Positions 5,999-55,045 of a stretch of DNA of 64,000 nucleotides are shown here, piece by piece. Below the pieces are notes generated by a model. It was not told the DNA's origin. It searched no databases and saw only the letters and a list, made by a program, of their open reading frames with translations. The translations under genes and the position numbers were made by a program. The first letter of the stretch is position 1, and each line of letters opens with the position of its first letter. Source of the stretch: a virus (Duplodnaviria > Caudoviricetes); IMG/VR virus record IMGVR_UViG_3300025428_000004, positions 502-64,501 of that record; one strand, 5' to 3'.

Positions 5999-6730
5999 AT
6001 GACAGCGGGATTAAACTATCAGGGATTCGTCAATCAGATATCGACATTGGCTGTCGTTTCATCTGGAGACGCCAATTTCCTTGCGATTTTGCCGCAAGCG
6101 ATAACCTATGCCGAGAATCGCATATATCGCGAGCTGGACCTACTTTTCACGTCTGTCGCGAACACGTCTTTTGCCCTGACGGCTAATAATCGGCAGATCA
6201 CGATTCCTGCCGGTACCTTTGTCGTTCCAGAACAGATCAACGTCATCGCGCCATCGTCAGCGACAGGGCCTGATAACGGCATACGCGTACCGTTACTGGC
6301 AGCGACGCGAGAATTTATCGACGCCACATGCGGTGATTCCAGATACGTCGGATTGCCAAAGTATTTTGCACCTGTAGGCGAGGCGAAGGGCAATCTGTCC
6401 TTCATCGTTGGTCCGTATCCAGACGCACCGTACAAGCTTGAGATCGTTGGCACGATCCGGCCGGACAGCCTTTCGACAACGAATCCGACCACGTTTATCA
6501 GTCAATTCCTGCCTGATCTTATGATCAATGCCGCAATGATCTACGTCAGCGGCTATCAGCGTAACTTTTCATCGAATGCCGCCAATGATCCGCAAATGCC
6601 GGTCAATTATGAGACGCTGTACCAGACAGCGATGAAAGCGGCGATGATGGAAGAGGCGCGCAAAAAGTTCGAGGCCGCTGCCTGGTCCGATAAGTCGATA
6701 TATCCAGTATCAACACCGTCGCGGGGATAA
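5999..6730 (+). CDS. Tail adaptor / tail tubular protein A-like
   Basis: I..AE.RI.REL, G.PKYFA, VGP.PD..Y motifs; position before nozzle gene. Confidence 0.7.
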   Translation: MTAGLNYQGFVNQISTLAVVSSGDANFLAILPQAITYAENRIYRELDLLFTSVANTSFALTANNRQITIPAGTFVVPEQINVIAPSSATGPDNGIRVPLLAATREFIDATCGDSRYVGLPKYFAPVGEAKGNLSFIVGPYPDAPYKLEIVGTIRPDSLSTTNPTTFISQFLPDLMINAAMIYVSGYQRNFSSNAANDPQMPVNYETLYQTAMKAAMMEEARKKFEAAAWSDKSIYPVSTPSRG

Positions 6731-6733
6731 TAA

Positions 6734-9457
6734 ATGTCCCACGCTACGCTCAAATTTGTTCCTGGCGTAAACAGAAACAGGACGCCTGCGCTCAACGAGA
6801 CGCAGCTATCCGAGTCAAACCTGATCCGTTTTGTGCCTGACAATCAGGGATTGGGTCTTGTTCAAAAGCTTGGTGGGTGGAAAAAGTTCTTCACGGGCAG
6901 CTTAAGCACGATCACGCGTACGCTTTGGGCCTGGCAAGATACAAACGATGGGCAGCATCTTGCTTGCGGTGGTCAGACAAATTTCGTCAATGCTGACACG
7001 GCATACGCCAATGGCGCAGAAATTATCATCACTTACACGGCTCCTGAGAACTACTTTCAGACCGGTGCATATGTCACGTTGAATGGCTTTCAGCCAGAAG
7101 CGCTAAATGGTGTTCATCGTGTGCTTGTATCGACGCAGGGCTATTTAGCCGTTGATACGACCTATACAGGCGCATGCACGACGCTGGGCTCAGTCTTTAT
7201 CGGCACGTCATTGTCGGTAATAACGAACGGTTCATTGGCCGATATTACGCCAGGCTATCAGTTCACCGAGCCTTATGTGCATATATCGACGACCGGCGGA
7301 TCTCCTATCTGTATCATTGAAGACAAGGAAATTCAGGTAAAGACGGGCGACTCTGTCTACATCAAGACGCATATCAGCGTTGGCGGCATTGTTCTGTTTG
7401 GCGCATACGATGTCACGTATGTCGATGCGACGCATTACAGCATCGTTTCTGTGGACGTGCTAGGAAATCCAAAGCCTGCAACGGCGACCGTTGGCGGTGG
7501 CGGCGTTTTGCCTATCTTCGACTTCGCGATTGGCTCTCCCTATGTGACCGTGACATTGCCTAATCACGGCTATGCGGAAGGGGATACATTTCCAATTATC
7601 GTACCTGTATATGCCGGCACCGTTAGCCTTTACGGCAACTATATTGTCTCGCTGCTTGACGTTAATGATCCCGTCAACACGTTTACGATCACCGCGTCTA
7701 ATGTTGCAACGACGTCAACCCTGGCATGCCGCCCATTAAGCTTATCCAGTGACGGTCAGAACGCATATTTTCATCTATCTGCACCCTATGGCGTCGATGT
7801 TGGCGACAAGATCCGCGTGCAGGATTCAGAGCCAAGCTTGGATGGAGAATATACAGTCACATCAGTTGGCGAGTTTTTCTTCACCGTAGCATCCACCAAC
7901 AATTGGAATTTCGAGACTGATACTGGCTATTTCTACAAGTCCCAGGGCGGTGACGGTAAGAAGCTGGAGATTGCGTATAGCTCTCCCTATAACGCCAATG
8001 TCGGCGATACGATCTACCTGTCTTCGTTCGTACCGAATGCTTATAACGGCGAATGGAAGGTCACAGGCGCTGGATACTACAGCGTAGAGATAGACACGAC
8101 CGTCACAGGCTCGATCACGTCTATTGGCGTGCTATTCGTTAAGGACACCGTTCTTAATCTCGGTCGCCCGATATATCAGTATTTCAACTCTGCTTATGTT
8201 GTCCCTGTTCAGGCCGGCTACGGTCTCGGTGGGTACGGTGTTGGCGGTTATGGTATTGGCGCAATTGTTCCGCCGACGCCAAAGATAGAGATCCCCGTTA
8301 CAGCGACAAGCTGGTCATTGGATAACTGGGGCGAGATTCTCATCGCCTGTCCAGAAGGTGGACCTATCTTTCAGTGGTCTCCTATCGCTAACCAGGCGAC
8401 AGCGGCTGTTATTTCACAAGGTCCGCTCGTTAATGACGGTTGCTTCGTCGCGATGCCTCAACGTCAGATCGTTGCCTGGGGGAGCTCCTTTACCGGTATT
8501 AAAGATCCGCTGCTTGTACGTTGGTGCGACGTTAATGATTATACGACCTGGTCAGCCACAGTAACAAATCAGGCTGGTAGCTATCGCATATCAAAAGGCT
8601 CAAAGATTGTCGGCGGCATCCAAGGTCCGCAACAAGCTCTGATCTGGACCGATATTGCATTGTGGTCGATGCAGTACATTGGTCTGCCGTACGTCTATAG
8701 TTTCACAGAAATTGGTACGGGCTGCGGTTTGATCTCGCGTAGAGCGGCCGGATCTCTTGGCGGCGCTGTTTACTGGATGTCACAATCTCAATTCTTCGTT
8801 CTTGGCAGTGAAGGCCCGACGCCTTTGCCATGCCCGATATGGGACGTGATTTTCCAAGACATGGATCTGGATAACGTCGATAAGATCCGCTTTGCTGCGA
8901 ATTCCAATTTCAACGAGGTGATGTGGTACTACCCGACGACATTGTCGAGCGGTGAAAATAGTCGCTACGTCAAATATAACACTGTTCTGCAATGCTGGGA
9001 TTACGGCGTTCTCGATCGTACCGCGTGGATCAATCAGTCAGTATTCGGTCCGCCAATTGGCGCAGGCGCAGATAAGTTCATTTACCAGCATGAGACCGCG
9101 CTCGATGCAGACGGCCAAAATATGCCGTCATTTTTCAAGACGGGTTATGCCCAGGTAGGCGAAGGCGAGTTCAAGATCTTCCTCGATCAGGTTTGGCCCG
9201 ATTTCAAATGGGGATTTGACGAAGGTTCAACGGCTGCAAACCTGAATATCACGTTCTGGGTCACTGATTACCCTGGCGATACACCAAAGATATTTGGTCC
9301 GATGCCGTTCGATAAAACAACAGAATATCTCACGCCAAGATTTAGAGGCCGTCTTGTTGCAATTGAGATCAACGAGGTCGATGGCCCACAAAACACGCAA
9401 GCGTTCTGGCGTATCGGCGCATTGCGGTACCGCGCAATTCAAGATGGGAAGTTCTGA
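6734..9457 (+). CDS. Tail nozzle / stabilisation protein with inserted beta-rich repeats
   Basis: 907 aa; WSLDNWGE, RWCD..D...W, GCGLI, EVMWYYP motifs; repeated HG...GD modules. Confidence 0.75.
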   Translation: MSHATLKFVPGVNRNRTPALNETQLSESNLIRFVPDNQGLGLVQKLGGWKKFFTGSLSTITRTLWAWQDTNDGQHLACGGQTNFVNADTAYANGAEIIITYTAPENYFQTGAYVTLNGFQPEALNGVHRVLVSTQGYLAVDTTYTGACTTLGSVFIGTSLSVITNGSLADITPGYQFTEPYVHISTTGGSPICIIEDKEIQVKTGDSVYIKTHISVGGIVLFGAYDVTYVDATHYSIVSVDVLGNPKPATATVGGGGVLPIFDFAIGSPYVTVTLPNHGYAEGDTFPIIVPVYAGTVSLYGNYIVSLLDVNDPVNTFTITASNVATTSTLACRPLSLSSDGQNAYFHLSAPYGVDVGDKIRVQDSEPSLDGEYTVTSVGEFFFTVASTNNWNFETDTGYFYKSQGGDGKKLEIAYSSPYNANVGDTIYLSSFVPNAYNGEWKVTGAGYYSVEIDTTVTGSITSIGVLFVKDTVLNLGRPIYQYFNSAYVVPVQAGYGLGGYGVGGYGIGAIVPPTPKIEIPVTATSWSLDNWGEILIACPEGGPIFQWSPIANQATAAVISQGPLVNDGCFVAMPQRQIVAWGSSFTGIKDPLLVRWCDVNDYTTWSATVTNQAGSYRISKGSKIVGGIQGPQQALIWTDIALWSMQYIGLPYVYSFTEIGTGCGLISRRAAGSLGGAVYWMSQSQFFVLGSEGPTPLPCPIWDVIFQDMDLDNVDKIRFAANSNFNEVMWYYPTTLSSGENSRYVKYNTVLQCWDYGVLDRTAWINQSVFGPPIGAGADKFIYQHETALDADGQNMPSFFKTGYAQVGEGEFKIFLDQVWPDFKWGFDEGSTAANLNITFWVTDYPGDTPKIFGPMPFDKTTEYLTPRFRGRLVAIEINEVDGPQNTQAFWRIGALRYRAIQDGKF

Positions 9458-9822
9458 TGGCGTCACAAGCTGATTTTCTCACATCGCAGAAGAATCTTGT
9501 CGTTGCGACAAGTCTCTTGAATCAATCGTGGAATGATTACCAGCGCAAAGGCTATGGCGACGTTTCGTCTTCATGCATTTCAGTGCCAACGGTTGTTTGT
9601 ACTGGTTCTGGAAACCTTGTGTCTGTTTCTGTGGTCGATGCAGGGACAGATGCCGGATTCATTTATGACGCTGCCACAGTCGAAAATCTCAATCCAAGCG
9701 CGCGACTAAAGGCGATCCTTAATACGCAAGGGATCTACCAAGCTTCGTTTCGCTTCACGAACGGTCTTGTCGTTGCTCCTGGCAAAGATCAGGCCGTAAC
9801 AGTGACCTATTCGAAAGACTGA
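9457..9822 (+). CDS. Virion structural protein
   Basis: Translationally coupled ORF in tail operon; beta-rich. Confidence 0.6.
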   Translation: MASQADFLTSQKNLVVATSLLNQSWNDYQRKGYGDVSSSCISVPTVVCTGSGNLVSVSVVDAGTDAGFIYDAATVENLNPSARLKAILNTQGIYQASFRFTNGLVVAPGKDQAVTVTYSKD

Positions 9823-10205
9823 TGATGATTGTTAACTCTAACAAGGTCTGGGTTGGTCCCATACCAAGCAACGTGTGCGGAAGGACAGATCATCTGCCGA
9901 TCAATGTGCCGGCTGGATCTTATGTCCTAACCGCTGATGTTGTTTCAGGTCTTGGAGAGGGGAATACGATTGCTGGGTTTGAGCTGCTTAACAAGTTTTT
10001 CGGAAAGCAGAAGAAAATAGGGGACGACGTAACAGAAGTTGTTGTCGCTGGGGGCGAGTACATCCTCGCACCTCAAACAATCGCTAATAGAATAGGCGGC
10101 GGTGATTTAGAGGCGGGTCACAATACGCTCGATGGCTTTGTCGTGAAGTATCGGGAGAAGACGATCCAGACTCTAAAGAAACTGCCTGGACCTAAACGGG
10201 ATTAG
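9822..10205 (+). CDS. Small protein made of two 'G..D.[IL]P...GEYV'-type units
   Basis: GPIPSNVCGRTDHLPINVPAGSYVLTADVV and DVTEVVVAGGEYILAP. Confidence 0.7.
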   Translation: MMIVNSNKVWVGPIPSNVCGRTDHLPINVPAGSYVLTADVVSGLGEGNTIAGFELLNKFFGKQKKIGDDVTEVVVAGGEYILAPQTIANRIGGGDLEAGHNTLDGFVVKYREKTIQTLKKLPGPKRD

Positions 10206-10215: not shown

Positions 10216-10755
10216 ATGTCTGACGAATTCAAAGTGCGTGTAGCAACACCTGAAGATGTCCATCAACTCATGGAGATGGGCATAGCTGCAAATGATGAGA
10301 TCGGAATTGCGAAAGCAAATCCTGAAAAGCTTTTGCTCGATATCTGGCCTGCGCTGCATCGGCAGTCTGGCATTATTGGCGTCATCGGAAAGCCGGGGCA
10401 GCGCATCGAGGGTGGTATCGTCCTGAAGATCACAAACCTCTGGTACAGCGACGAAGAATTTCTGGAAGAGCGCATTGTCTATGTGCGTCCTGAATATCGT
10501 CGTGGCGGCAGATCGCTTGGTATCAAGTCTCGCGCTGGAAAGCTGATCGAGTTTGCCAAGAAAGTATCTGATGAAATGCAAATGCCTCTTGCTGTCGGCA
10601 TATCAACGGCAATTGGCTTTCGCGGAAAAGCTCGCATGTACGAGCATTTCTTTGGACCGCAAGCAGGCGCGTTTTTCTTGTACGGGCGACAGCATCACAA
10701 AGATGGTTTTGCCCCTGCAACCGAAGAAGCTCCCGCTTTAGCTGCGGCAGAATAA
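10216..10755 (+). CDS. GNAT-fold protein (tail/ejection-core assembly)
   Basis: VRVATPED start, YVRPEYRRG motif; typical position before ejection proteins. Confidence 0.65.
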   Translation: MSDEFKVRVATPEDVHQLMEMGIAANDEIGIAKANPEKLLLDIWPALHRQSGIIGVIGKPGQRIEGGIVLKITNLWYSDEEFLEERIVYVRPEYRRGGRSLGIKSRAGKLIEFAKKVSDEMQMPLAVGISTAIGFRGKARMYEHFFGPQAGAFFLYGRQHHKDGFAPATEEAPALAAAE

Positions 10756-10768: not shown

Positions 10769-13700
10769 ATGGGTATGGGTGCAGGTGGCGGCGGTGGGGG
10801 CCAACAAGGCGCATCAATGACAAGCTTCAACGGTACGTCCACAGTGACGCCACCCGCTGAAGTTTTGGATATGTATCGCTCGATTAACCCTCTGGCGCAG
10901 AAGGCGGCTTCTACCCCGTGGGAGAACTATAGCAATACGCCTGATGGCTTTGTTGCGCAGATCAACGATACGCAGAATTCTGCTATCCAGGGGCTCGATA
11001 ACAATATCTATACTGCGCAGCCCTACACGAACCAGGGCATGGGATCTCTTGGTAGCGCCTCGAATCTATATGGCGCATCGAGCGATCAAGCGACGGCGGC
11101 AGGAAATGGCGTTGTCGCAAATTATGGCGCAACAAATATTGCGAGCCCCTATTACAACAATGCAATGAATCTGACGGCTGATGCTGCGTCAGCTCCTGGC
11201 GGCTATGATGTTGCAAACCCCTATCTTCAAAGCGGTGCTGGGCTAATCGGTTATGGTGGCCAAGGCACAAACCAAGTCAGTGCGCAGGACATCAACCAAT
11301 ATCTGTCGCCGTACCAAAACGACGTCATCAACTCCACGATGGGATTGCTTAGTCAGCAAAACAATCAGGCGATGTCTGGCGCGTTGGGCAATGCGATCGA
11401 AAGTGGTGGATTTGGCGGCGATCGCGCCGGCATTGCGGCGGCTAACCTTGCACAGCAACAAGAGCTCGCAAATGCGAATGTGCTTGGCGGATTAGAAAAT
11501 CAAAACTACAGCCAGGCGTTAAGCACGGCCGTTGGTCAGCGTGGACAGAACCAAGCAGATCTTCAGCGTGCTATTCAAGCAGGCCAAGGCCTTGGTCAGA
11601 TCGGCTCTCAAGCCGGATCTCTTCAGCAATCTGATCTACAACGTCAACTGGCTGCCGGTCAGCAAGAAGCCGCAATCGGTACGCAGCAATATCAAAATTA
11701 CACTGCGCAACAAGCCCAGCAACAGCAAGATCTGCAACGTCAATTGGCTGCTTCTCAGCAATTGGCGAACAATGCTTCTGGATTAACAAACCTTGGTAAT
11801 TCACAAGCGCAGATGGGTATAAACCTTAACAATAGCATCAACCAGGGACTCGAGTCGCAACTCGGCGCAGGCACGCTGCAACAACAAACAGAGCAGGCCG
11901 GCAAAGACGCAATGTACAACCAATGGCTGCAAATGAAGGCATACCCCTTCATGACCACGCAATGGTTGGCGGATATCTATGGCGGTCTTGGTCCATTGTA
12001 TGGCTCAACGACGACGCAAAGCGGTACGTCGATGTCAATGCCGCTTGGTTTCTCCGATCCGCGTTTGAAGGGCGGCGTTGGCGGGTTCTCACGCGGTGGT
12101 GATGCTGACAAGCCGGAGGTCATCGGTAAGACGTTCGATGACCAACCGATCTATCGCTATTCGATGATGGGTGGTGCGCCACAGCTCGGTCTGATGGCTG
12201 ACGAGGTCGCTCAGAAACAACCAGAACACGTCTATAACGTCGATGGCTTGCTTGCGATGGATTATGCCGGCGCAACTGATGACGCTGCACGCATCGGTCA
12301 TCACCTGGGCGCTAATCATCGTGAGCATTTTGCCGGCGGCGGTTTAGCAGGCGCTCTTGCTGCGCAGTCGCAGATGTATGCCAATAAGCATCCAGGCCAA
12401 GCAGGCCCTGGCGGCAATAGTTTCGTCCCGCAAGGAAAGGGCGGCGGACATGGCGCATTAACGCCAACGTCAATCAATGTTCCAAAAGCAGAGCTGACTC
12501 AGCCTAAAGTTCAACATCCACCGCCAGATATTGCTGGCTCCCTGGAAAAGATGAAGGGCCTCGCCGGATTAGGTGGCAAAGGCGGCGGATTAGGCAATCT
12601 GTTTGGCGGCAGCGGATCAGGCGGATTAGGCGGTGCATTTGATACGGCTGCAAGCACATCAACTCCTGCCGCAACAACGGCAGCCCAGGTCGCATCGACG
12701 CCTGCACCATCTGGCGAAGAGTTCCCGAAAGTAACGCCGGCAAGCACCGACAGCGCTCCGTTGCCGCCGGCACGTCCATCGGATCTCTCTTCTGTCGCTG
12801 ATGCGACCGATAGCACGGATTACGGCACAGATGGAGCCGGCGGCGTCTCGCAAATGGCTGATGCAGATCTTGGCATGCTCGATTTTGCTGCACGCGGTGG
12901 TCGTATCGGTCGCTCAATCGGCGGCGTCATGCCATTTAACAACGAAAGTGGCAGCGTGCCATTTGCACCAAACGGCGGAAGCATGCCGTTTGAACAGGGA
13001 ATGAAAAACAACATCGTTCCTGCCTCAGTGCTTAACGATCAACATCACCCACAAATGATGGTTTCTCAACCACCGGATATGATGAAGATGTCTGGTCAGG
13101 GTGGTGGCGGCAAAAAAGGCGGCGGCGAAGGCGGCAAGCAAGCCGAACAAATGATGAAGCAGGGCATGGACCAGATGAAAGGTCTCATGGAAAAAGGCAC
13201 GAAAGGTGCTGAAGCTGCTCCAACAAAGATCACTGAACAAGCCACCAAGCCGGTACAAGATGCTGCCGATAAGACTCAGCTCGCCGACAGCGTCGAGCAC
13301 GCAGCCGACGGTGTTCAAAACACGTCATCGCAAGCTGAAAACGGTCTTGGCAACATTGGCGAGCATGCAGCTAATGGCGCAGAGAATGACGCCTCGCAAG
13401 GTCTTGGCGAGGTTGGCAAAGATCTTGGCAACAATGCAAGCGAAGCAGCTAGTGGCCTGGAGAATAGCGCATCTGAAGGCCTGGGAGATCTCGGATCATC
13501 TCTTGGCGACGCAGGAGGCAGTCTCGGAGATGTGGCAGGCGATGCAAGCGCAGGCCTTGCTGATGCAGCCGGCGACGGCCTTATGGGCGCATCTGAAGAT
13601 GCTGCGGCCGGTCTGGGTGATATGGCCGCTGAAGCTGGCGCTGATGCTGCCGCTGCGGGTGCAGAAGCTGCCGCTGGCGCTGCCGGTGGCGGCCTTGAAG

Positions 13701-16285
13701 GTCTTGGCGCACTTGCTGGTCTTCTCCTTCTTAAGAGAGGCGGTCGCGTTTCATCAGGTCGCAAAAAGCTCAGTACTGGCGGCCCTGATTCGGAAGCAAC
13801 GTCCGATGTTTCAGAGGTTGTCGATACGCCTACGCCTGACGTGCCAGTAGAGCTCGTAGAGGTCGAAAAGAAAAAACCAGCGCCTGTTGAGCAAGCAGTG
13901 CAGGTTGCAGATGCAGCGACATCGAGAAGCGATGCGCCGGCAGACGATGGATTTAATCGTCATGTCGGTACGGTGTTGAAAGTTGAAGGCGGTTACACAC
14001 CAGATGACGCCGGACACGGTCCGTCTAATCGCGGCATTAACGCCGCTGCGCATCCCGGCATGGACATCAAGAATATCTCTGAAGGTCAGGCGCGAGATAT
14101 TTATCGCAGAGAATATTGGGACGGCGCTGGCATTGGTAATTTGCCGGAGCATATGCGCGGTCTTGCGTTTGACGCTTCTGTTAATCAGGGACCAGGTCGT
14201 GCGCGCGCATGGGCGCAACAAGCTGGCGATGATCCATACAAGCTCTACAAGCTTCGTCAGGAGCACTATCAGAGTCTGGTTGATCGCAATCCTGGCAAGT
14301 ATGCGCAGTATGCGAATTCATGGAATGGCCGTCTAAACGCGCAAGCTCAACTCGCTGGCATTAAGGACATCAGCAATCTGCAAGTAAACGGTCATCCTGC
14401 GCGTAACACGGGTGGTGGTCCAGAATATCTTGACCGCTCGATGATGGCGTCTACTGACGGACATGAGCAACAAATTGGACCAGGCGCAGAAGAAAGCGGC
14501 GGTCTTGGTGCGCTCGATGTTATCCTGCCTTTAGCTGCCGCTGGTGCGCAGTATGCGGTGAATAGGCATTATCACGGCGCAGGCGCTGCCGCTGCATCTG
14601 CGCTCGCCTCTGGCCTGGGAACGCTTGGTGGCATGCGTACGGCAGGTCTCGAAGAAGAGCGCGCGCGCCAGAAAATGGAATTAGAGCAAAAGCGTTTTGA
14701 TCGCGATATGAGCAACGATGAGCGTAGCTACGGTTACAAAGATCGTGAAAATCAGCGCCAGGACGAAGAGCTGAAAATCAAGCAGCGTGAATTCGAAGCG
14801 AAAGAAGCGCAGCGCAAAGCTCTTGAAGACGCCTACAAACAGAATCCGTCGTCATCTGAGCCAGAAGGCGGTTATGGCCCCAAAGGTGGAGTCGGCGGTG
14901 TTGGCGGTGTTGGCGGTACGGGCGGTGTAAATGCGCCACCTGTCGCGCCTCCATCTCCACCTGTACAGCCTACGCCTAACAACTCTATCCAGGTTGCTCC
15001 TGAAGAGCCTGTTAAGAGCACGCAACCGCCTGTCCAACGACCTCCTGTCCCGGTTGAGCCTACTGGCACGACGCCGCCAGAACAGAATCCGGTAAGCGAT
15101 GCTACAGGCGTAGCTAGCAAGGTCAATGCGCCGACAGAGCCTCCTGTTGCACCTCCAGCTCCTGTCGAGCCTGCGCCAAAGCCTGCCGGTACGCCAGATC
15201 CTGCGAAGTTCTGGCCCGGTTCAGAAAATCACAGCAATCCGTATTTCTTCAGCGCCAAAGCTGATGAGGCTGGCAAAATGGCTGCCAAGCTTCGTCAGAG
15301 CCCATACACGGCCGACCAGGCTGCGAAGTGGGAAGAGGCGCAACGGTTCTATCTTGGAAAAGCAAGAGACGCTGCAACATCGCGCACCGTGATGATGAAA
15401 GACGGCACCGTGCAGATGAATCCCTGGGCGGTACAAACGGAAGGCCAAGCAGGCGCATCTATCAAGGCGGCAGAAATGCAAGCCGGCAAAGATGTCGAAA
15501 ACCGCAACTCTTACGAAGAGATCGAGCCGATACCTGGCGGACCAAAGCAGCTCATTCGCAAAGACAAATTGCTAGAGCAGGTTGGCGTCGATCCTACCGT
15601 CATCAAGTCACAGCCTGCCTGGGTGCAAGAGACGCGTAACGCTCAAGCAAAAGAAGAAGTCCAGATTCCTAACCAGATGAAAGGTTTTCAGCTTTCACTG
15701 ACGCGATTAAAGCGCATGCAGGAAATTCAGCAAAGCCTTCAGACCGGCAAGTTCGAGCCGCAAAAGGCAGAGATCTACGCTGCGCTCGACTCTCTCGGCA
15801 TACCGATCGACAAGAAGCGTTTGCGTACCGCTGAAGAAGTACAGCAATTCCTCAAGAACGGTGTTGCGAACACGTTCGAGCAAGTCAAAGCAATGGGCGG
15901 TCGTCCGCTCGTCGCAGAGATCGAGGGCCTGGCAAGAGCAAATGCTAATGCTGCGCTGACGCCTGAAGCAAACCGTCAGATCATTGCGCGCTCAATCGGT
16001 CAGATCCAATACAACACCGACTATCTGAACGATTACGTCAATTGGCGTCGCGAGAATCCATACACGATCGACACAATGCGGTTCGATCAAGAATGGATGA
16101 AGACTCACGACATCCATGACTACGAAAACCGCGCAGCCGACGAAGCAACGGCTGTCGGTTCACATAATCCACCGGCTAAACCAACTGTTCTGCCTCCTGT
16201 CGATCAGCGTGTTGCAGGTAAAACGGCGCAAACAATTGGCGGCAAGACGTACCTCTGGAATGGGCAAGGTTGGGCAGCGCAATGA
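10769..16285 (+). CDS. Giant ejection/DNA-transfer protein: Gln-rich N-terminus, peptidase S74-like domain, GH108 lysozyme, helical C-terminus
   Basis: FSDPRLK...IYRY...GLMADEV...VDG..MDY (12050-12270); LKVEGGY...NRGI...IYRREYW...FDASVNQGPG (13973-14340). Confidence 0.8.
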   Translation: MGMGAGGGGGGQQGASMTSFNGTSTVTPPAEVLDMYRSINPLAQKAASTPWENYSNTPDGFVAQINDTQNSAIQGLDNNIYTAQPYTNQGMGSLGSASNLYGASSDQATAAGNGVVANYGATNIASPYYNNAMNLTADAASAPGGYDVANPYLQSGAGLIGYGGQGTNQVSAQDINQYLSPYQNDVINSTMGLLSQQNNQAMSGALGNAIESGGFGGDRAGIAAANLAQQQELANANVLGGLENQNYSQALSTAVGQRGQNQADLQRAIQAGQGLGQIGSQAGSLQQSDLQRQLAAGQQEAAIGTQQYQNYTAQQAQQQQDLQRQLAASQQLANNASGLTNLGNSQAQMGINLNNSINQGLESQLGAGTLQQQTEQAGKDAMYNQWLQMKAYPFMTTQWLADIYGGLGPLYGSTTTQSGTSMSMPLGFSDPRLKGGVGGFSRGGDADKPEVIGKTFDDQPIYRYSMMGGAPQLGLMADEVAQKQPEHVYNVDGLLAMDYAGATDDAARIGHHLGANHREHFAGGGLAGALAAQSQMYANKHPGQAGPGGNSFVPQGKGGGHGALTPTSINVPKAELTQPKVQHPPPDIAGSLEKMKGLAGLGGKGGGLGNLFGGSGSGGLGGAFDTAASTSTPAATTAAQVASTPAPSGEEFPKVTPASTDSAPLPPARPSDLSSVADATDSTDYGTDGAGGVSQMADADLGMLDFAARGGRIGRSIGGVMPFNNESGSVPFAPNGGSMPFEQGMKNNIVPASVLNDQHHPQMMVSQPPDMMKMSGQGGGGKKGGGEGGKQAEQMMKQGMDQMKGLMEKGTKGAEAAPTKITEQATKPVQDAADKTQLADSVEHAADGVQNTSSQAENGLGNIGEHAANGAENDASQGLGEVGKDLGNNASEAASGLENSASEGLGDLGSSLGDAGGSLGDVAGDASAGLADAAGDGLMGASEDAAAGLGDMAAEAGADAAAAGAEAAAGAAGGGLEGLGALAGLLLLKRGGRVSSGRKKLSTGGPDSEATSDVSEVVDTPTPDVPVELVEVEKKKPAPVEQAVQVADAATSRSDAPADDGFNRHVGTVLKVEGGYTPDDAGHGPSNRGINAAAHPGMDIKNISEGQARDIYRREYWDGAGIGNLPEHMRGLAFDASVNQGPGRARAWAQQAGDDPYKLYKLRQEHYQSLVDRNPGKYAQYANSWNGRLNAQAQLAGIKDISNLQVNGHPARNTGGGPEYLDRSMMASTDGHEQQIGPGAEESGGLGALDVILPLAAAGAQYAVNRHYHGAGAAAASALASGLGTLGGMRTAGLEEERARQKMELEQKRFDRDMSNDERSYGYKDRENQRQDEELKIKQREFEAKEAQRKALEDAYKQNPSSSEPEGGYGPKGGVGGVGGVGGTGGVNAPPVAPPSPPVQPTPNNSIQVAPEEPVKSTQPPVQRPPVPVEPTGTTPPEQNPVSDATGVASKVNAPTEPPVAPPAPVEPAPKPAGTPDPAKFWPGSENHSNPYFFSAKADEAGKMAAKLRQSPYTADQAAKWEEAQRFYLGKARDAATSRTVMMKDGTVQMNPWAVQTEGQAGASIKAAEMQAGKDVENRNSYEEIEPIPGGPKQLIRKDKLLEQVGVDPTVIKSQPAWVQETRNAQAKEEVQIPNQMKGFQLSLTRLKRMQEIQQSLQTGKFEPQKAEIYAALDSLGIPIDKKRLRTAEEVQQFLKNGVANTFEQVKAMGGRPLVAEIEGLARANANAALTPEANRQIIARSIGQIQYNTDYLNDYVNWRRENPYTIDTMRFDQEWMKTHDIHDYENRAADEATAVGSHNPPAKPTVLPPVDQRVAGKTAQTIGGKTYLWNGQGWAAQ

Positions 16286-19200
16286 CAGAAGTTCTAAGCG
16301 ACGATCAGCTCCTTTCACTTGAGAAGCCGAAAGCAGATGTCTCTTTCGCGCCAGAGGAGTCTGCGCCGGCTCAAAAGTCAGAGATCTTGTCTGATGACCA
16401 GCTCATGGCGTTGCATGCACAGCATCGCCCAGAAGAAGCGCCTCAAGGAATACTGACGCGCACGGAAGACGATGGTTATGGCTCCGGTGCATTAAAAGGC
16501 GCAGCGACGGCAACGATACATGGCCTATCGTCTATCCCTGGTACGGCAGGCAACATTAGAGACTTTGGTCGCTATGGCGCTGATCGTGCAGTTGGCGCAA
16601 TTACAGGCGCGACGCCAGAAGAGATCGAGAAGAAACGCATTAAAGGTTACGATGAAGACCTGGCTGATTGGATTGGCGAGAAAACAGGTTTTCGTCCGCG
16701 TATGCCAAACACGGAGACGTTTGCTGCGCCTATTGAAGAAAAGACTGGTCGATATGATCCAGATACTGTTGGCGGCAAGATTGCGCAGGGCGCATTAGAA
16801 GCCGGCATCGGCGCAATGGGTCCAGGTAGTGGCGTGCTTAAAGCAGGCGCAAAAGCTGGACCTGCTATTGCTGAAACGATCGCACCAAAAGCTGCGGCGC
16901 TGAATATGCTTGGCGGTGGCGCAGGCGCAGGCGTAACGGATATCACTGGCGATCCGCTGTACGGATTTGGCGCAAGCGTTTTATCGGGCGGCGCAGCGCA
17001 TGCTGGCGAGGCTGGCTTTAACAAGTTTGGCAAACCAATAAAGGCGCAGTTCTCAAAAGGCGCACGCGACGCACAAGCCGCTGAACAGCTCTTAGGCTAT
17101 GCGCATGATCCAGAGGCTCTGAAACAATCGCTTGTTTTCGGCGATGCGCAAGGTCCGGTAAAAGATCAGATCGTTCCTGGCTCGCCATTGACGCTCGGTC
17201 AGCGGTACGGCGACACCGGTATTTTACAAGCAGAGCGTTCGTTCAGAAGCGATCCTGAATTCGGATCTGAGATCAACAAGCGCGAGTCGCAACAAAACGA
17301 GGCGCGTCACCAGGCTCTTGCTGATGTGCCAAAAGATACGGCCGTCACGACTGATCTTCCCAATGCGGTACGCGATCGACATACAACGATCACGCAACGA
17401 TATGAACAAGCAGAAGCAGCTCTATACGAGCGTGCGCAACGAGAAATGGCGGCGCTTGGCGAGCGTGCAGATCCGTCAGAGATCGGTCAGCGTCTGCGTG
17501 AGGATATCCAGAAGTCTCGCGACGCAGAGAAGAAAGATATCGACAAACTATACGACGAGGTGGATCCCAACGGCGACATGTCGTTGCTGACAAGCCCGGT
17601 GCAAAAAGCGCGTGATGCAATCCTGGCGGACAAGGGCGCGTTCACAGAGCATTCGCCAGAGCTGACGGGCGTTCTTAATCGCCTGGAGAATCTGCAAGAC
17701 GTCCATACGTTCAAAGATGTCAGGGATTTAGACCGCCTTCTGTCGGAAAAAATGTCGGCAGAACGCAGGGCAAATGGTGAAACAACGAGCTGGCGTCACT
17801 TGGCGGCCTTGAAAGGCGCTACAAAAGAAGCCATAAATAAAGCTATCGAGAACCAGATCGCCTGGGAGAATGCGGCGGTCAAAGAGGGCAAATTACGGCC
17901 AGAGGACACCCTTGAAGGACGACTTGGACAATCTGACCCTAGAGCTGCCGCTGCCGGAGAGGCCGCTGCAAGTGCTGGAGAGGGTGATGAATCGGTACGA
18001 CAGACCGCCGGAGGAGATCGCCCTGTTCCTCCAGCGTCTGGAAATTCGCGGCAAGAAGGAAGCGGACCTGGAAATGTTAATGGCGGTGCGGGATTATCGC
18101 AAAAAGTACCAACCGGTGGGCATAAGGTTTACTACCCAGGTGGAAATGTAGATGTTCAGCATCAGGTCGTCGATCTGAATGACCTGACAATCTCACACAA
18201 TTCCGATTTCACTGAGAATCCAAAATTCCCGCAAGAGCTCCAGCCGCGTGATCGTTCTGGCAAGCCTGCGCAAGACCAGGTTCTGCACTACACCAACAAT
18301 CTCAATCCTGATCAGCTCGGTATCAGCGCAGAAGCTAATACGGGCGCTCCTGTCGTTGGTCCTGATGGCGTTGTTGAAAGCGGCAATGGTCGCTCGATGG
18401 CCATCCGTAACAACTACGCCAAGGGGGATCCTCGCGGCTATCGCAAATGGCTTGAGTCGCAAGGCTACGACACGACGGGCATTAAAAACCCTGTATTGAT
18501 TGCACGACGTACCAGCGAATTGACGCCATCGCAGCGCGAGTATTTCACGCAAAACGCTAACTCGAAAACCGGCCTAGCGATGAATGCGGTGGAGCAAGGC
18601 GCAGCCGACGCCAAGTTCCTGACGCCTGAAGTGCTTTCAAAGCTAGAAATGGGCGATGTTAATTCCGCTGCTAATGCTGCGTTTGTTAATGAGGTGATGA
18701 GCAAACTGCCGGTTAATGAGCGTGGCGATTTCGGCACAAGCGACGGCAAGTTATCGCAATCTGGCGTACAGCGTCTCAAGGCTGCAATTATGTCGCGTGC
18801 GTTTGGCTCTGACGACATTGTGCGTCGTGGCTTTGAAAGCACAGACAACAATATCCGCAATGTTACCGGCGCGCTGTCTGATATTGCTGGTCCCTGGGCG
18901 CAGATGCGTGCAGCGGCAGAAGCTGGACATATCGCGCCTAATCACGACGTGACGAAAGAACTGATCGACGCGGTGCATAAGATCATGCGTGCGCGCGACG
19001 AAGGTCGTCCTGTCAGTGAAGTGATCAAACAGAAGGACATGTTCGGCGGTGATACGCCAGAGCTCGTCGCAAAGCTTCTGTTTAACGGAGACCGTGTCGC
19101 TGGACGGCAGGCTATCGCGGAGCGGCTACAGCGGTATGCTGTTGAGGCGCTCAAGAATGAGTCTGGACCTGGTTTATTCGGCGACACGGTTACTCCCGAC

Positions 19201-20718
19201 GATATCTTGAAAACAGTTGGCGGGAAGGGTGGCGAAGAGCCTGCCCCAGAAGCGCCAAAGGTCGAAGAGAAACAAACCGACACTGGTACGTTTGAGGCAG
19301 GCGCAAATGAGCCGCCTCCTGGCACGCGTCCTAACATGGAGCCTGGTCAAGCTGACAAGCTGAAGACGGCTAACAAGCGGTACGGTGAATATGCGCAGAC
19401 GTACAAGAATGGCCAGGTACGCGATGTCTTGAAGACGACCGGTTTCAAGGATCAGTATTCCGTTCAGGATTCGGCTGTCGCGGGTCGCGCTGTAAAGCCT
19501 GGCGATACAGGACTCGAAACAGCGACGCGTTTCTTGAAAGCGGCAAAGAATGGCGAAGGCGCAGTCAGCGCGATGAAAGAGGCTGTGCTTAACAAGTTCC
19601 GTGATCTCGTAAAGCCTGACGGTACGATGGACGCCAGGAAATTCGCCACAGTGCGTAAAAGTTTTGATGGCGCAATACAGGCGATCGACAAGGTTTCGCC
19701 TGGTTTTGCGCAGTCATTGGAGAATCCGGCAAAAGCGGCTGAGTCTATGGCGGCGTTTTGCAAGAATAGAAAAGAGGCGCTCGATGCTCTGCAAAAAGAG
19801 GCGGCGTCCAAGTTCCTTGGCCTGCATGATCCTGTCGAGATCGAGAATGCTGTCGGCAAGCTCATCGACGGACAAAGCGTCACGCGCGTACGCGATGTCG
19901 TAAAAGACCTGCCTCCAGATGCAGTTGAAGGCATGCGCAAGGCGGCAGTCGATTGGATCCTGCGCGCTAAGACAAATGTTGCGCGTCCTGGCGTTGGCGA
20001 GACGCGCGCGCTGTCGTACGCAAAGCTTGATACGATGCTGAAGAACAAGCGTCCGATGCTTGAGGCGATATTTACGCCAGAGCAAATGTCAGTGCTAGAT
20101 AACGTCAATCGCGATCTGATGCTGTCGGACAGATCTGTCCAGGCGACAAAAGATCGTACCAATACCTCTGGATCTGGTCGCGCTGCGGCTGATCATCTGA
20201 AGGCCGCTGGATCTGATATCGCAAACATGACCGTTGGCGGTATTCTCTATGCAAGCGTCGCAGAAGGATTCCATACGGGTGGATTGTTTGGCGCATTAAA
20301 GATCGGCGTACCGGCAGCCCTTGTAAAGCTGGGCATGAAGATGCGTGCAAGCGGCATGCAATCCGTCAATGACGTCGTCAAGCAGGCAATGCTCGATCCA
20401 GAGTTCGCGCGTGAATTGCTGAACAAGGTGCCGGTTAGAAACCAGGAAATTCCGCAAGGCTGGGCAGATAAAATCCAGAACGCAATACACCGGACAATCT
20501 ATCGGTCGTACTTAAGCGGCGTTCCTGTTATGCAGGACGAACAGCGTAAAGCGCGCGCAACGGGTGGTAGAATCGGTCGTTCTGCAATGACGCCTGACCA
20601 GTTGATCACGGCGCTAGAGCGTACGCGTAAAGATCAGCAAAAAAGCACGGAAGTCATTCTTAGCAAGCCAGACGCAACGGTCGTTCGGGCTCTCGATATA
20701 GCAAGTCAACAACTCTGA
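16282..20718 (+). CDS. Giant polyvalent/ejection protein with DdrB-like ParB domain
   Basis: PQELQPRDR...GAPVVGPDGVVESGNGRSMAI (about 18120-19170); otherwise helical. Confidence 0.75.
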   Translation: MTEVLSDDQLLSLEKPKADVSFAPEESAPAQKSEILSDDQLMALHAQHRPEEAPQGILTRTEDDGYGSGALKGAATATIHGLSSIPGTAGNIRDFGRYGADRAVGAITGATPEEIEKKRIKGYDEDLADWIGEKTGFRPRMPNTETFAAPIEEKTGRYDPDTVGGKIAQGALEAGIGAMGPGSGVLKAGAKAGPAIAETIAPKAAALNMLGGGAGAGVTDITGDPLYGFGASVLSGGAAHAGEAGFNKFGKPIKAQFSKGARDAQAAEQLLGYAHDPEALKQSLVFGDAQGPVKDQIVPGSPLTLGQRYGDTGILQAERSFRSDPEFGSEINKRESQQNEARHQALADVPKDTAVTTDLPNAVRDRHTTITQRYEQAEAALYERAQREMAALGERADPSEIGQRLREDIQKSRDAEKKDIDKLYDEVDPNGDMSLLTSPVQKARDAILADKGAFTEHSPELTGVLNRLENLQDVHTFKDVRDLDRLLSEKMSAERRANGETTSWRHLAALKGATKEAINKAIENQIAWENAAVKEGKLRPEDTLEGRLGQSDPRAAAAGEAAASAGEGDESVRQTAGGDRPVPPASGNSRQEGSGPGNVNGGAGLSQKVPTGGHKVYYPGGNVDVQHQVVDLNDLTISHNSDFTENPKFPQELQPRDRSGKPAQDQVLHYTNNLNPDQLGISAEANTGAPVVGPDGVVESGNGRSMAIRNNYAKGDPRGYRKWLESQGYDTTGIKNPVLIARRTSELTPSQREYFTQNANSKTGLAMNAVEQGAADAKFLTPEVLSKLEMGDVNSAANAAFVNEVMSKLPVNERGDFGTSDGKLSQSGVQRLKAAIMSRAFGSDDIVRRGFESTDNNIRNVTGALSDIAGPWAQMRAAAEAGHIAPNHDVTKELIDAVHKIMRARDEGRPVSEVIKQKDMFGGDTPELVAKLLFNGDRVAGRQAIAERLQRYAVEALKNESGPGLFGDTVTPDDILKTVGGKGGEEPAPEAPKVEEKQTDTGTFEAGANEPPPGTRPNMEPGQADKLKTANKRYGEYAQTYKNGQVRDVLKTTGFKDQYSVQDSAVAGRAVKPGDTGLETATRFLKAAKNGEGAVSAMKEAVLNKFRDLVKPDGTMDARKFATVRKSFDGAIQAIDKVSPGFAQSLENPAKAAESMAAFCKNRKEALDALQKEAASKFLGLHDPVEIENAVGKLIDGQSVTRVRDVVKDLPPDAVEGMRKAAVDWILRAKTNVARPGVGETRALSYAKLDTMLKNKRPMLEAIFTPEQMSVLDNVNRDLMLSDRSVQATKDRTNTSGSGRAAADHLKAAGSDIANMTVGGILYASVAEGFHTGGLFGALKIGVPAALVKLGMKMRASGMQSVNDVVKQAMLDPEFARELLNKVPVRNQEIPQGWADKIQNAIHRTIYRSYLSGVPVMQDEQRKARATGGRIGRSAMTPDQLITALERTRKDQQKSTEVILSKPDATVVRALDIASQQL
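17912..18151 (+). CDS. Putative nested small gene (79 aa) in +1 frame of the polyvalent protein gene
   Basis: AGAGGA SD + TTG; helical charged sequence; host frame here is low-complexity with many GGA codons. Confidence 0.5.
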   Translation: MKDDLDNLTLELPLPERPLQVLERVMNRYDRPPEEIALFLQRLEIRGKKEADLEMLMAVRDYRKKYQPVGIRFTTQVEM

Positions 20719-48907: not shown

Positions 48908-49566
48908 TGACTGCAACTGTCAGCATGAAGGATTACTGGCCGCTATTCACGCACGGCGGCAAGATCACTTACTACTACACGGGCATCAAGCCTGAGACGC
49001 CGCATCTCTATGCCGAGATCTTCTACGACGCCGAGAAAAAGGCGATGTGCTACAAAGAGTACGACGTCGCCAAAGACGGATCGTATTCCTGGCGCGATAG
49101 CTGGTTCTATGAATATCGCGAAGGCTTTGGCATTGCCGAGTATCGTGATGATTATCCATCGCCTGGCAAATGGTGGGGCGACACCAAGGTTGTCGTCATG
49201 GATCCGCCGATAGGTTGGGGCGATGTTCAACAAATTGGCAGCGTTTACGAGAATGAGCCTGCGTTTGTGTTCGATCAGTGCATACCGCCGAGCGTTGCCT
49301 ATGGCGATCAGCGCGTAGAGTTCGAGCGCAAGTACGATGAGTATCAGAATGCGCGCGCTTTCTGGATCGACGTTGTTCGCTTCCGTTATTACCAGGCCTG
49401 GAATGGCGGCAATGCAAGCGGCGCAATCTATTGGTTTGCGCCTGCACGCGGTCCAGTGACGCAGCAATTCCTTGCACGCCTGCCAAGCGGTGAAGTCGTT
49501 TACTCCGACATCTACAGCGCAGCGGTCAGCCTGGTTAATTGGCCTAAAGGCGAAGAGGTGGCGTGA
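48904..49566 (+). CDS. Hypothetical protein, paralogue B
   Basis: GIAEYRDDYP...VMDPPIGWG. Confidence 0.75.
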   Translation: MMTATVSMKDYWPLFTHGGKITYYYTGIKPETPHLYAEIFYDAEKKAMCYKEYDVAKDGSYSWRDSWFYEYREGFGIAEYRDDYPSPGKWWGDTKVVVMDPPIGWGDVQQIGSVYENEPAFVFDQCIPPSVAYGDQRVEFERKYDEYQNARAFWIDVVRFRYYQAWNGGNASGAIYWFAPARGPVTQQFLARLPSGEVVYSDIYSAAVSLVNWPKGEEVA

Positions 49567-54065: not shown

Positions 54066-54100
54066 TAGCGGGACGCCGCTTTAATCTCTGGAGAAGTACG

Positions 54101-55045
54101 ATGTCGTTAATTACAGGAAAACAATCCCAGGAGAATGCGAGAGCAAAAGCTGCGCGTCTTACTGGCGGATCGAATTCGCAAAAGCCTTTCTATGGAGCTG
54201 GCGTATTTGATGCAGATAAGAAAACCGGCAAACAGCCAACAACGAAGCCTAAATTCAATGTTGGCGGCAAGGTCGAAGGCAAGGCTGCCGAAGCGCGCGC
54301 CGATCGCGTTGCACGCAAAGCTGGCGGCCGTATTAAAGCGAAGACAACAATCAATGGGCTGACATCTGAGAAGACTTCAAAGATCGCCACAAAGGTTGGC
54401 TCGCCAAAAAGCATGTCTTTACAGAAAGGCGCTGATGACGCGTTGAAGGTCTCTGCCGTCAAGAAAGCATTGACGCCGAAGAAAGACGTTAAGCCGATGA
54501 AGGCTGCGCCAGAGACAAAGCCTGTGGACGTCAAGGATCCAGAGTTCGACGATAAAGCAATTGCCGATACGATGGCGTCTGATGAAGACACAAACGACAG
54601 CGGTGAAGCGTTGAAGCGCGGCGGTCGCGCCAAGCGTGCTTGCGGCGGTACGATGAATGACGGCCCAGACAAAGAGAACGACAATGACGCTGACGATAAG
54701 ATGAATCGTGGCGGTCGTGCAAAACGCGCATTCGGCGGTACGCTCAATGGCGATCATAAAGGCAAAGGAAAAAAGAGTGGCAAGACGAATATCAATATCG
54801 TCATTGCTGCGCCTCAAGGCGGACAAGACGCGGCTGCGCAAGCACCGCAATCTGCTCCCCCTCGCGCTGTTCCACCGCCAATGATGCCACCGCCAGGCGC
54901 AGGTGCTCCTCCAATGCCGCCTCCAGGTGGAATGCCAATGCCTCCAGGCGCAGGCGCTCCTCCTCCAATGCGCAAGGCTGGCGGACGGGTAATGGCTGGC
55001 GCTGGTTCTGGACTTGGTCGCTTGCAGAAAGCGCGTGCAATCTAA
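54101..55045 (+). CDS. Basic, low-complexity head-region protein with repeated xxGG motifs
   Basis: GGAG SD; FNVGG, RKAGG x2, LKRGG, RACGG, MNRGG, RAFGG; Pro-rich tail. Confidence 0.75.
   Translation: MSLITGKQSQENARAKAARLTGGSNSQKPFYGAGVFDADKKTGKQPTTKPKFNVGGKVEGKAAEARADRVARKAGGRIKAKTTINGLTSEKTSKIATKVGSPKSMSLQKGADDALKVSAVKKALTPKKDVKPMKAAPETKPVDVKDPEFDDKAIADTMASDEDTNDSGEALKRGGRAKRACGGTMNDGPDKENDNDADDKMNRGGRAKRAFGGTLNGDHKGKGKKSGKTNINIVIAAPQGGQDAAAQAPQSAPPRAVPPPMMPPPGAGAPPMPPPGGMPMPPGAGAPPPMRKAGGRVMAGAGSGLGRLQKARAI

What the first reader, a model, noticed from the sequence alone, without database searches (positions are those of the whole stretch)
9822..10205. Stand-alone partner domain of the xxGG tag, itself lacking the tag
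Seen: the 127-aa protein has two units (GP...GRTDHLPINVPAGSYVLTADVV and DVTEVVVAGGEYILAP). From recalled phage sequences: this pattern resembles the 'GPG..SD.IPA.LS.GEFV' domain that in tape-measure proteins directly follows an F/Y-A-x-G-G strand (lambda gpH has FATGG...GEFV...YATGG near its processed C-terminus). Here the domain is a separate gene without that strand, while about 20 copies of the strand lie in five other virion proteins. Inference: it is the trans-acting reader or protease of the tag.
Basis: inference. Interest (0 to 1): 0.7.

Follow-up and report, generated by a model that had tools for sequence, protein, structure and literature searches.

The report
Tag-less phage cargo-carrier joint domain
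A small, very widespread phage protein built from two copies of the module found at the cutting joints of tail tape-measure proteins stands alone here beside the injected proteins of a short-tailed phage, and it more likely anchors or escorts injected proteins than cuts them.

Summary
The 127-aa ORF (9822-10205, +) is real. It is an internal duplication of a beta-hairpin plus two-helix unit (AF2 pLDDT 90.6; unit 1 vs unit 2 profile comparison 96% probability).

It has no Pfam, PHROG, NCBIfam or solved-structure match, yet 2,104 clusters at 50% identity contain it. In 139 of 141 representatives it is the extreme C-terminal module. It often follows cargo domains (ART-PolyVal, NUDIX, pyrophosphatase, lysozyme).

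In 129 of 141 representatives a [RKFY]-A-x-G-G motif lies shortly upstream of each unit. The window's copy is a minority form that has lost the tags and the N-terminal module; this loss happened at least 3 times.

Unit 2 plus its tag matches the C-terminal joint of lambda-type tape-measure proteins (hhalign 89%, E 2e-6). The published T5 pb2 cut (after R1127) falls inside such a tag (PR|AEGG).

In 80 related viral contigs the gene keeps one place: nozzle, small ORF, this gene, acetyltransferase-like gene, giant ejection protein.

Best reading (about 0.5): a virion-incorporation and ejection handle, or tail-lumen module, of the injected-protein set. The tags would be flexible or cleavable joints. 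Nothing supports a protease or reader role, and nothing excludes it.

The parts
9822..10205 (+). Target gene: 127-aa stand-alone two-unit domain. It has no tag and no N-terminal module, and ends in LPGPKRD.
   Evidence: single copy in the 64,501-base virus record
9843..10007 (+). Unit 1 (residues 8-62): G-R-T-D-H-L-P..V-P-A-G-S-Y-V hairpin (strands 24-30, 34-36) plus helices 38-44 and 49-60.
10023..10202 (+). Unit 2 (residues 68-127): V-V-V-A-G-G-E-Y-I-L hairpin (strands 70-76, 80-82), helices 84-91 and 96-120, and the conserved C-terminal tail.
5999..6730 (+). SU10-type adaptor protein (243 aa).
   Evidence: PF24175, E 4.7e-16
6734..9457 (+). Nozzle-like virion protein (907 aa). It lies upstream of the target homologue in 79 of 80 related loci.
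   Evidence: (phrog_3287, E 4.5e-55)
9457..9822 (+). 121-aa ORF of no known family. It is found upstream of the target homologue in 58 of 80 related loci.
10216..10755 (+). Acetyltransferase-like 179-aa protein. It lies directly downstream in 77 of 80 related loci.
   Evidence: (phrog_1249, E 1.2e-5)
10769..16285 (+). 1838-aa ejection protein with a GH108 lysozyme domain. It carries FAGGG (nt 12329), FAARGGRIG (nt 12884-12910) and LKRGGR (nt 13730).
16270..20718 (+). 1482-aa internal protein with a ddrB-ParB domain. Near its C-terminus it has RATGGRIGRS (nt 20554).
49563..54065 (+). 1500-aa polyvalent protein (Phage_lysozyme2, LPD23, GP88, and an HEIQH motif at nt 51852-51866). Tags: YANGG 49806, MKRGG 49881, FASRGGRIG 50820, FADGG 50850, RADGG 52188, FAKGG 53913.
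54020..55045 (+). 341-aa low-complexity protein with 5 tags (nt 54314, 54611, 54635, 54725, 54971). This is the strongest tag enrichment in the window.

Best explanation
The gene encodes the minimal, cargo-less and tag-less form of a conserved carrier module of the phage's injected-protein set.

The fold is two tandem copies of a beta-hairpin plus two-helix unit, ending in a free, conserved C-terminal tail (..TLKKLPGPKRD). This two-unit domain is the indispensable part. It most likely docks in the virion, inside or next to the nozzle or portal channel, together with the giant ejection proteins encoded just downstream, and leaves with them at infection. That would parallel the tape-measure C-terminal joint region, which sits at the tail tip of long-tailed phages.

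In most relatives, enzymes to be delivered are strung onto this handle. They sit N-terminal to it or between its two units, always through [RKFY]-A-x-G-G joints. The joints are flexible linkers and, by analogy with T5 pb2, probable cutting sites.

Shown: the fold repeat, the family size, the fusion architectures, the synteny, the link to tape-measure joints, and the coincidence with the T5 cut site. Inferred: presence in the virion, the docking site, ejection, and cutting at the joints.
For: (1) Fusions. The domain is at the extreme C-terminus in 139 of 141 representatives. Of 30 long relatives scanned, 8 carry Pfam effector-type domains: ART-PolyVal in 5, plus NUDIX, InPase, lysozyme and LPD23. 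17 of the 30 start with the phrog_2423 N-module. Cargo lies either before unit 1 or between units 1 and 2, always fenced by tags.

(2) Synteny in the 80 best of 536 related viral loci. The nozzle is upstream in 79 of 80. The acetyltransferase-like gene is directly downstream in 77 of 80. The giant ejection protein is downstream in 66 of 80, and 13 of the 14 misses end within 1.1 kb of the target. A GenBank relative is annotated 'phage stabilization protein', hypothetical, this gene, 'acetyltransferase', 'internal virion protein D'.

(3) The two-unit core persists when the N-module and tags are lost. 9 of 81 rows lack them, and the tree needs 4 changes, at least 3 of them forced by well-supported branches. 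Neither an N-module nor a second copy of the domain exists elsewhere in the window.

(4) 3 of 98 long relatives fuse the domain to a segment homologous to the window's own 1500-aa polyvalent protein.

(5) Unit 2 plus its tag matches tape-measure C-terminal joints. The T5 pb2 cut after R1127 lies in PR|AEGG (passage of PMC10038345 read). Lambda gpHC, which holds this region, stays at the tail tip (passages of PMC12617516).

(6) In the model of a tag-bearing relative the tags are low-confidence linkers.
Against: There is no direct evidence that the protein is in virions. No cultured phage carries it: 2 of 50,697 GenBank phage records matched, both uncultured. So no proteomics exists.

No structural match shows where it would dock.

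Many invariant polar residues in a 127-aa protein would also fit an enzyme or a specific ligand site.

The tape-measure link rests on about 35 aligned columns. Both sets were cut out around a GE anchor. 3 of 200 permutations reached the observed score. Sequence-to-profile scores are weak: 7 of 30 tape measures scored above all 180 decoys, with a best score of 10.1 bits.
Confidence: 0.5

Rival explanations
1. Processing element. The hairpin module is itself the catalyst, or an obligatory cofactor, that cuts [RKFY]|A-x-G-G joints. It would act in cis in fused relatives and tape measures, and in trans here on the tag-bearing 1500-, 341-, 1838- and 1482-aa proteins.
For: Tags sit 7-25 residues before unit 2 and 13-45 residues before unit 1 in 129 of 141 relatives. 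The T5 cut lies in a tag 14 residues before a GE hairpin. The catalyst of lambda gpH cleavage is stated to be unknown (PMC12617516 passage). The residues R21, T22, D23, N48, E79, D104 and R111 are invariant and D39 and H100 nearly so. The N-terminus of the short form coincides with the position just after tag 1 of the long forms.
Against: No peptidase family, motif or fold was found. Several invariant N/D residues sit at the starts of helices and may be structural caps. Only GG, a Pro and GE are shared with the tape-measure modules. The 1500-aa protein has its own HExxH motif as an alternative protease candidate. The title of a 1973 T5 paper cited speaks of host involvement in tail-protein cleavage; only the title was seen.
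Confidence: 0.15
2. Non-catalytic reader. The tag-less domain binds the xAxGG tags of other virion proteins in trans and so gathers them for packaging.
For: The tag and the domain co-occur throughout the family. This phage has tag-rich virion proteins but a tag-less domain. A nine-residue FA[AS]RGGRIG is shared by two different giant proteins.
Against: In the model of a relative, the protein's own tags do not dock on the units; they have pLDDT below 50. Tags occur in the downstream ejection protein of relatives whether or not the domain carries its own tags, so there is no complementary pattern.
Confidence: 0.1
3. Assembly factor or other non-virion role. This would be a T7 gp13-like helper needed to mount the internal proteins or the tail, and not itself delivered.
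For: The gene sits between the nozzle and the large internal proteins. That T7 gp13 lies at the corresponding place is recalled, not tested.
Against: Fusion of host-directed enzymes (ART, NUDIX, pyrophosphatase, lysozyme) to this domain makes sense only if the domain travels into the virion and the host.
Confidence: 0.15

Closest known systems
C-terminal joint region of lambda-type tape-measure proteins (lambda gpH residues about 728-790, part of gpHC; covered by no Pfam family, since PF09718 ends at residue 701)
   Same: A [FYRK]-A-x-G-G tag followed by a V-P-x-h-h-x-x-G-E-x-V hairpin. hhalign of family unit 2 plus tag against 24 tape-measure modules gives 89.2% probability and E 2.2e-6. A2 against gpH aligns residues 744-772.
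   Different: Tape measures carry one short hairpin unit inside a roughly 700-1100-aa ruler of long-tailed phages. Here two units with extra helices form a separate 127-aa protein of a short-tailed phage, without tags. Unit 1 matches only weakly (8.9%).
Phage T5 tape measure pb2, matured to pb2* plus pb2C (Linares et al. 2023, PMC10038345; passages read)
   Same: The mapped cut after R1127 lies inside a tag (FVPR|AEGG) and is followed by a GE hairpin-like stretch. The family's tag consensus is [RKFY]-A-x-G-G.
   Different: Cutting is shown for T5 only. No cutting is shown for this family. T5's stretch carries an H-x-x-E motif that the family lacks.
Polyvalent proteins of phages and conjugative elements (Iyer et al. 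2017, PMC5512222; passages read)
   Same: Relatives carry ART-PolyVal, LPD23, InPase, NUDIX and lysozyme domains in one chain. The window's 1500-aa protein has LPD23.
   Different: This domain hits none of the Pfam models, which include the LPD families. The window's copy has no cargo at all.
T7 internal virion proteins gp13 and gp14 (recalled, by gene position only)
   Same: The position between the nozzle and the large internal or ejection proteins.
   Different: No sequence or fold similarity was found in any search.
Capsid-targeting handles: MuF-anchored phage toxins, the T4 capsid-targeting sequence, encapsulin C-terminal cargo-loading peptides, crAss-like phage cargo proteins (all recalled; the ESM Atlas gave crAss_CARG1 as a weak lead at 0.85)
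   Same: A conserved terminal module with variable cargo attached.
   Different: No homology is shown. The Atlas score is in the range the tool calls often chance.

Membership tests
Unnamed two-unit C-terminal domain family (2,104 clusters) | Unit 1 with invariant G-R-T-D and G-x-Y-V hairpin | tested here: met
   G20 R21 T22 D23 are invariant in 57 sequences, the window's among them
Unnamed two-unit C-terminal domain family (2,104 clusters) | Unit 2 with A-G-G-E-[YFH], G-G-G-D, G-H..L-D and the extreme C-terminal L-P-G-P-x-x-D | tested here: met
   The domain is C-terminal in 139 of 141 representatives. The window protein ends LPGPKRD.
Unnamed two-unit C-terminal domain family (2,104 clusters) | [RKFY]-A-x-G-G tag shortly upstream of each unit | tested here: not met
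   None in the window protein. Present in 129 of 141 representatives for each unit.
Unnamed two-unit C-terminal domain family (2,104 clusters) | N-terminal two-helix module (phrog_2423) | tested here: not met
   Absent from the protein and from all six frames of the window, best E 0.32. Present in 72 of 81 syntenic genes.
Tape-measure C-terminal joint module | V-P-x-h-h-x-x-G-E-x-V hairpin | tested here: met
   Unit 2: hhalign 89.2%, E 2.2e-6; 3 of 200 permutations as high. Unit 1 is only weak.
Tape-measure C-terminal joint module | Embedded in a tape-measure protein of a long-tailed phage | tested here: not met
   A separate 127-aa gene in a podophage-type module with an SU10 adaptor and a nozzle
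Tape-measure C-terminal joint module | Proteolytic cut at the joint | not testable with these tools
   Known for T5 (with PMC10038345) and approximately for lambda (PMC12617516)
Any known peptidase clan | Recognisable catalytic fold or motif | tested here: inconclusive
   No hit in Pfam, PHROGs or NCBIfam. Foldseek against PDB gave no match at E 0.001 or better. VIA-align best Z 3.2 of 48,161 chains.
Polyvalent proteins (Iyer et al. 2017) | Two or more unrelated effector domains in one polypeptide | tested here: not met
   The window protein is the bare domain. 8 of 30 long relatives carry Pfam effector domains.
T7-type internal virion protein (gp13/gp14 position) | Gene between the nozzle and the large internal proteins | tested here: met
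T7-type internal virion protein (gp13/gp14 position) | Sequence or fold similarity to T7 gp13 or gp14 | tested here: inconclusive
   No PHROG family at E up to 1. Nothing in the fold searches.

The most novel reading that the evidence does not exclude
The hairpin unit is a self-contained joint-cutting element. Placed next to a [RKFY]-A-x-G-G tag, it would cut the chain there once the protein is assembled in the tail or capsid. That would make this family, and the tape-measure joints of lambda and T5, one new kind of assembly-triggered processing module. The tag-less stand-alone protein would be its trans-acting form. It would also answer the open question of how lambda gpH becomes gpH*.
Probability: 0.12. 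Interest if true: 0.85.

Novelty: new variant of a known kind. Interest (0 to 1): 0.55.

Why it matters
The domain is abundant (2,104 clusters at 50% identity) but lies outside Pfam, PHROG annotation, NCBIfam and the PDB.

It ties two things together through one short joint module. One is the enzyme cargo that short-tailed phages inject. The other is the place where long-tailed phages cut their tape measures; for lambda, a 2025 paper says the catalyst of that step is still unknown.

If the handle reading is right, it offers a natural, modular way to load foreign proteins into phage particles. If the processing reading is right, it is a new kind of protease.

Tried and rejected
Complex prediction. 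The target (alignment A2) was run with residues 405-455 of the 1500-aa protein, which hold FASRGGRIG and FADGG. The result was no verdict (score 0.02, mark 0.32). This is evidence neither for nor against binding.

Search with lambda gpH residues 715-800. All 120 rows listed were E. coli or Shigella tape measures 99-100% identical in that stretch, so no profile could be built. I replaced it with a PF09718 search of 401 genomes (42 with a match, 30 loci fetched). From those, 24 of 30 tape measures yielded a module by regex.

Searches that found nothing:
- A PDB sequence search with the A2 profile gave only HGPRT at E 0.2.
- NCBIfam on 60 members gave nothing below E 0.027.
- HMMs of the units against the window's six frames found no further hairpin unit, so in this phage the tags of the other proteins are not followed by units.
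- The ESM Atlas gave only unnamed viral clusters, plus crAss_CARG1 at 0.85, treated as a lead only.
- Earlier findings by place and by sequence gave nothing.
- The paper search 'tape measure protein / cleavage site / glycine / conserved motif / C-terminal' gave nothing relevant among the 15 listed.

I found no paper describing this domain, but this rests only and on passages of PMC5512222.

Rejected readings:
- 'The tag is a beta-strand that completes the domain'.
- 'The tag-less state is typical of the family'.

The supplements of the T5 paper (fig. S5G, table S3) were not opened. The cut site is taken from the main-text passage.

Full report
**The object**

Its ATG overlaps the stop codon of the upstream 121-aa ORF by one base.

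The window is bases 502-64501 of a 64,501-base IMG/VR virus record rated 100% complete. The gene occurs once in that record.

The phage is a temperate short-tailed type. It has:
- an integrase at 22202-23227;
- an SU10-type portal and adaptor;
- a 907-aa nozzle-like protein;
- giant internal proteins of 1838 aa (GH108 lysozyme) and 1482 aa (ddrB-ParB);
- in the head module, a 1500-aa polyvalent protein (Phage_lysozyme2, LPD23, GP88).

**Fold and repeats**

AF2 on a 57-sequence alignment gives pLDDT 90.6 and pTM 0.82. The model shows the same topology twice:
- strands 24-30 and 34-36 with helices 38-44 and 49-60;
- strands 70-76 and 80-82 with helices 84-91 and 96-120.

The repeat is also seen in sequence. 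A unit 2 HMM finds unit 1 at E 9.7e-5. Profiles of the two units align at 96.2% probability, E 2.5e-9.

No known family or structure matches:
- Pfam and PHROGs give nothing at E up to 1.
- NCBIfam gives nothing for 60 members.
- The PDB by sequence gives nothing.
- Foldseek against the PDB has 0 matches at E 0.001 or better.
- VIA-align against 48,161 chains has a best Z of 3.2.
- BFVD returns only four uncharacterised proteins of uncultured phages.

**The family**

The word-indexed search found 1,983 relatives of similar length. The exhaustive search found 2,104 cluster representatives at E 0.001 or better.

Most close relatives are about 169 aa. They add an N-terminal two-helix module (phrog_2423) and an R-A-x-G-G motif directly before unit 1.

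I examined the 149 representatives listed other than the window's own protein. Of these, 141 show both units by regex, and in 139 of the 141 the domain is the extreme C-terminus.
- 129 of 141 have a GG within 45 residues before unit 1. Ala is at -2 in 97 of them, and R/K/F/Y at -3 in 92.
- 129 of 141 have a GG between the units. Ala is at -2 in 101 of them, and K/R/F/Y at -3 in 85.

So the tag and the domain are real partners. The window's tag-less protein is the exception.

**Cargo**

I scanned 30 long relatives. 8 carry Pfam domains: ART-PolyVal in 5, NUDIX with DUF6098 in 1, InPase with lysozyme and LPD23 in 1, and a weak LPD23 in 1. 17 of the 30 begin with phrog_2423.

Reading 14 of them shows that cargo lies either before unit 1 or between units 1 and 2. 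Each junction bears a tag.

3 of 98 relatives of 280 aa or more fuse the domain to a segment homologous to residues about 490-840 of the window's own 1500-aa protein.

**Context**

Of 597 pattern matches in IMG/VR, 536 encode a relative, and the best 80 were kept. In these 80:
- the nozzle is upstream in 79;
- the 121-aa ORF is upstream in 58;
- the acetyltransferase-like gene is directly downstream in 77;
- the giant ejection protein is downstream in 66.

The misses are almost all contigs that end there.

One of the only two GenBank phage records with a hit (2 of 50,697, both uncultured) shows the same order. The annotators named its neighbours 'phage stabilization protein', 'putative acetyltransferase' and 'internal virion protein D'.

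At this one locus the gene varies from 124 to 605 aa. 9 of 81 rows, the window's among them, lack the N-module and tag 1. A tree of the domain needs 4 changes of that state, at least 3 of them forced by well-supported branches. The window holds no N-module and no second copy of the domain in any frame.

**The tags in this phage**

The strict [FY]AxGG pattern occurs once in the 1838-aa protein and three times in the 1500-aa protein.

Enrichment over shuffles holds only for the 1500-aa protein (6 seen, 1.4 expected; 1 of 300 shuffles as high) and the 341-aa protein (5 seen, 0.67 expected; 0 of 300).

Two giant proteins share FA[AS]RGGRIG, and a third has ATGGRIGRS.

In the 1500-aa protein, five of the six tags fall between the Pfam domains.

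In relatives, the first giant protein downstream usually has 2-7 tags, whether or not the domain gene has its own.

**Link to tape measures**

Lambda gpH has FATGG at 732-736, GEFV at 751-754 and YATGG at 782-786. This lies outside PF09718, which ends at residue 701. The family profile aligns unit 2 to gpH 744-772 (E 0.0037, probability 8.8).

I fetched 30 lambda-type tape measures from 401 genomes; 42 genomes had a match.
- The family HMM scores 7 of the 30 above all 180 reversed or shuffled decoys, always in the C-terminal region. The scores are low, with a best of 10.1 bits.
- 24 of the 30 show a tag followed by a hairpin, in four spellings..PRFHSGG..DEVPIIAQRGERV....ATGGYTG.GGKYEPAGIVHKGEYV....AxGGPV....Y.VGE.GPE.F.P.., and ..SDSIPALLSNGEFVV...
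- A profile of these 24 against the family's tag plus unit 2 gives 89.2% probability and E 2.2e-6 over 35 columns. Unit 1 gives only 8.9%.
- With the GE columns fixed and all other columns permuted, 3 of 200 permutations reach the observed score (mean 10.8, sd 15.1, maximum 134.4).

Both sets were cut out around GE, so I take this as moderate support.

**Are the joints cut?**

For T5, the main text of PMC10038345 places the pb2 cut after R1127. In the T5 record this is FVPR|AEGG, that is, inside a tag and 14 residues before a GE.

For lambda, PMC12617516 says about 14 kDa is removed from the glycine-rich C-terminal region. It also says gpHC stays bound to gpI at the tail tip, that residues about 690-817 are unresolved, and that the catalyst is unknown.

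Nothing shows cutting in the present family. AF2 of a 212-aa relative with both tags (pLDDT 81.6) puts tag 1 (residues 42-45) at the edge of a segment below pLDDT 50, and tag 2 (144-148) inside one. The N-module and both units are confident. So the tags look like free linkers, not strands docked on the units.

**Reading**

Five observations fit a virion-incorporation and ejection handle onto which cargo can be strung through flexible, probably cleavable joints:
- the bare domain is kept as a core gene at one place beside the ejection proteins;
- host-directed enzymes are attached to it in many relatives;
- its C-terminus is always free and conserved;
- the N-module and tags are repeatedly lost;
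- it resembles the tape-measure joint that stays at the tail tip.

I give this reading about 0.5.

It is not excluded either, because the invariant polar residues and the unknown catalyst of gpH cutting keep it alive. I give about 0.15 to a processing role and about 0.1 to a reader role.

An alternative protease candidate in this phage is the HEIQH motif of the 1500-aa protein. No Pfam peptidase model matched it at E 0.01 or better.

**Earlier notes of this scan**

One search listed a like gene in another genome with a similar verdict, and several tape measures with GG joints. I used these notes as leads to the two papers and tested the T5 and lambda points myself.

Noticed in passing
window 51852-51866 (residues 764-768 of the 1500-aa protein): There is an HEIQH (HExxH) motif between LPD23 and GP88. 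The surrounding segment is shared with relatives P0229, P0246 and P0174, which end in the target domain. It is a possible metallopeptidase of the polyvalent protein, but no Pfam peptidase model matched at E 0.01 or better.
   Followed up: partly
window 12884-12910, 50820-50846 and 20554-20580: The 1838-aa and 1500-aa proteins share a near-identical nine-residue FA[AS]RGGRIG. The 1482-aa protein has ATGGRIGRS near its C-terminus. This is a more specific motif than the general tag.
   Followed up: partly
window 54020-55045: This 341-aa protein lies between the polyvalent protein and the capsid gene. It is lysine-, alanine- and proline-rich with 5 tags (0 of 300 shuffles as many). It may be a scaffold-like or internal protein. 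It has no family hit.
   Followed up: partly
window 125-341 and 63784-64000; also 5999-6730 and 63024-63788: A 217-nt direct repeat (83% identity) lies at the two ends of the window, next to two different tail-fibre genes. There are two SU10-adaptor-like proteins (243 and 254 aa). This suggests a duplicated fibre or adaptor cassette.
   Followed up: no
window 3091-4790: A 2OG-Fe(II) oxygenase and a family-2 glycosyltransferase with a TPR repeat lie inside the tail-fibre region.
   Followed up: no
window 60828-61657: Five copies of a 44-nt unit (64-100% identity to the reference copy), spaced 138, 138, 276 and 234 nt apart, lie inside the 909-aa tail-fibre gene. This indicates a repeated protein domain. 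The repeat tool groups two more distant, weaker copies (61%) with them.
   Followed up: no
relatives P0121, P0129, P0141, P0166, P0201: A 50-residue module (phrog_16028, ..LYANIHAK..RI..GS..MRKPG..GAPT..AF..) recurs between tags in long relatives. It is another small unit of unknown role.
   Followed up: no
loci L084-L113: Relatives in genome collections are mostly contigs of metagenome bins from many phyla. Only three lie in isolate-type genomes (Boseaceae, Ancylobacter, Acidisoma). This hints at alphaproteobacterial hosts.
   Followed up: partly
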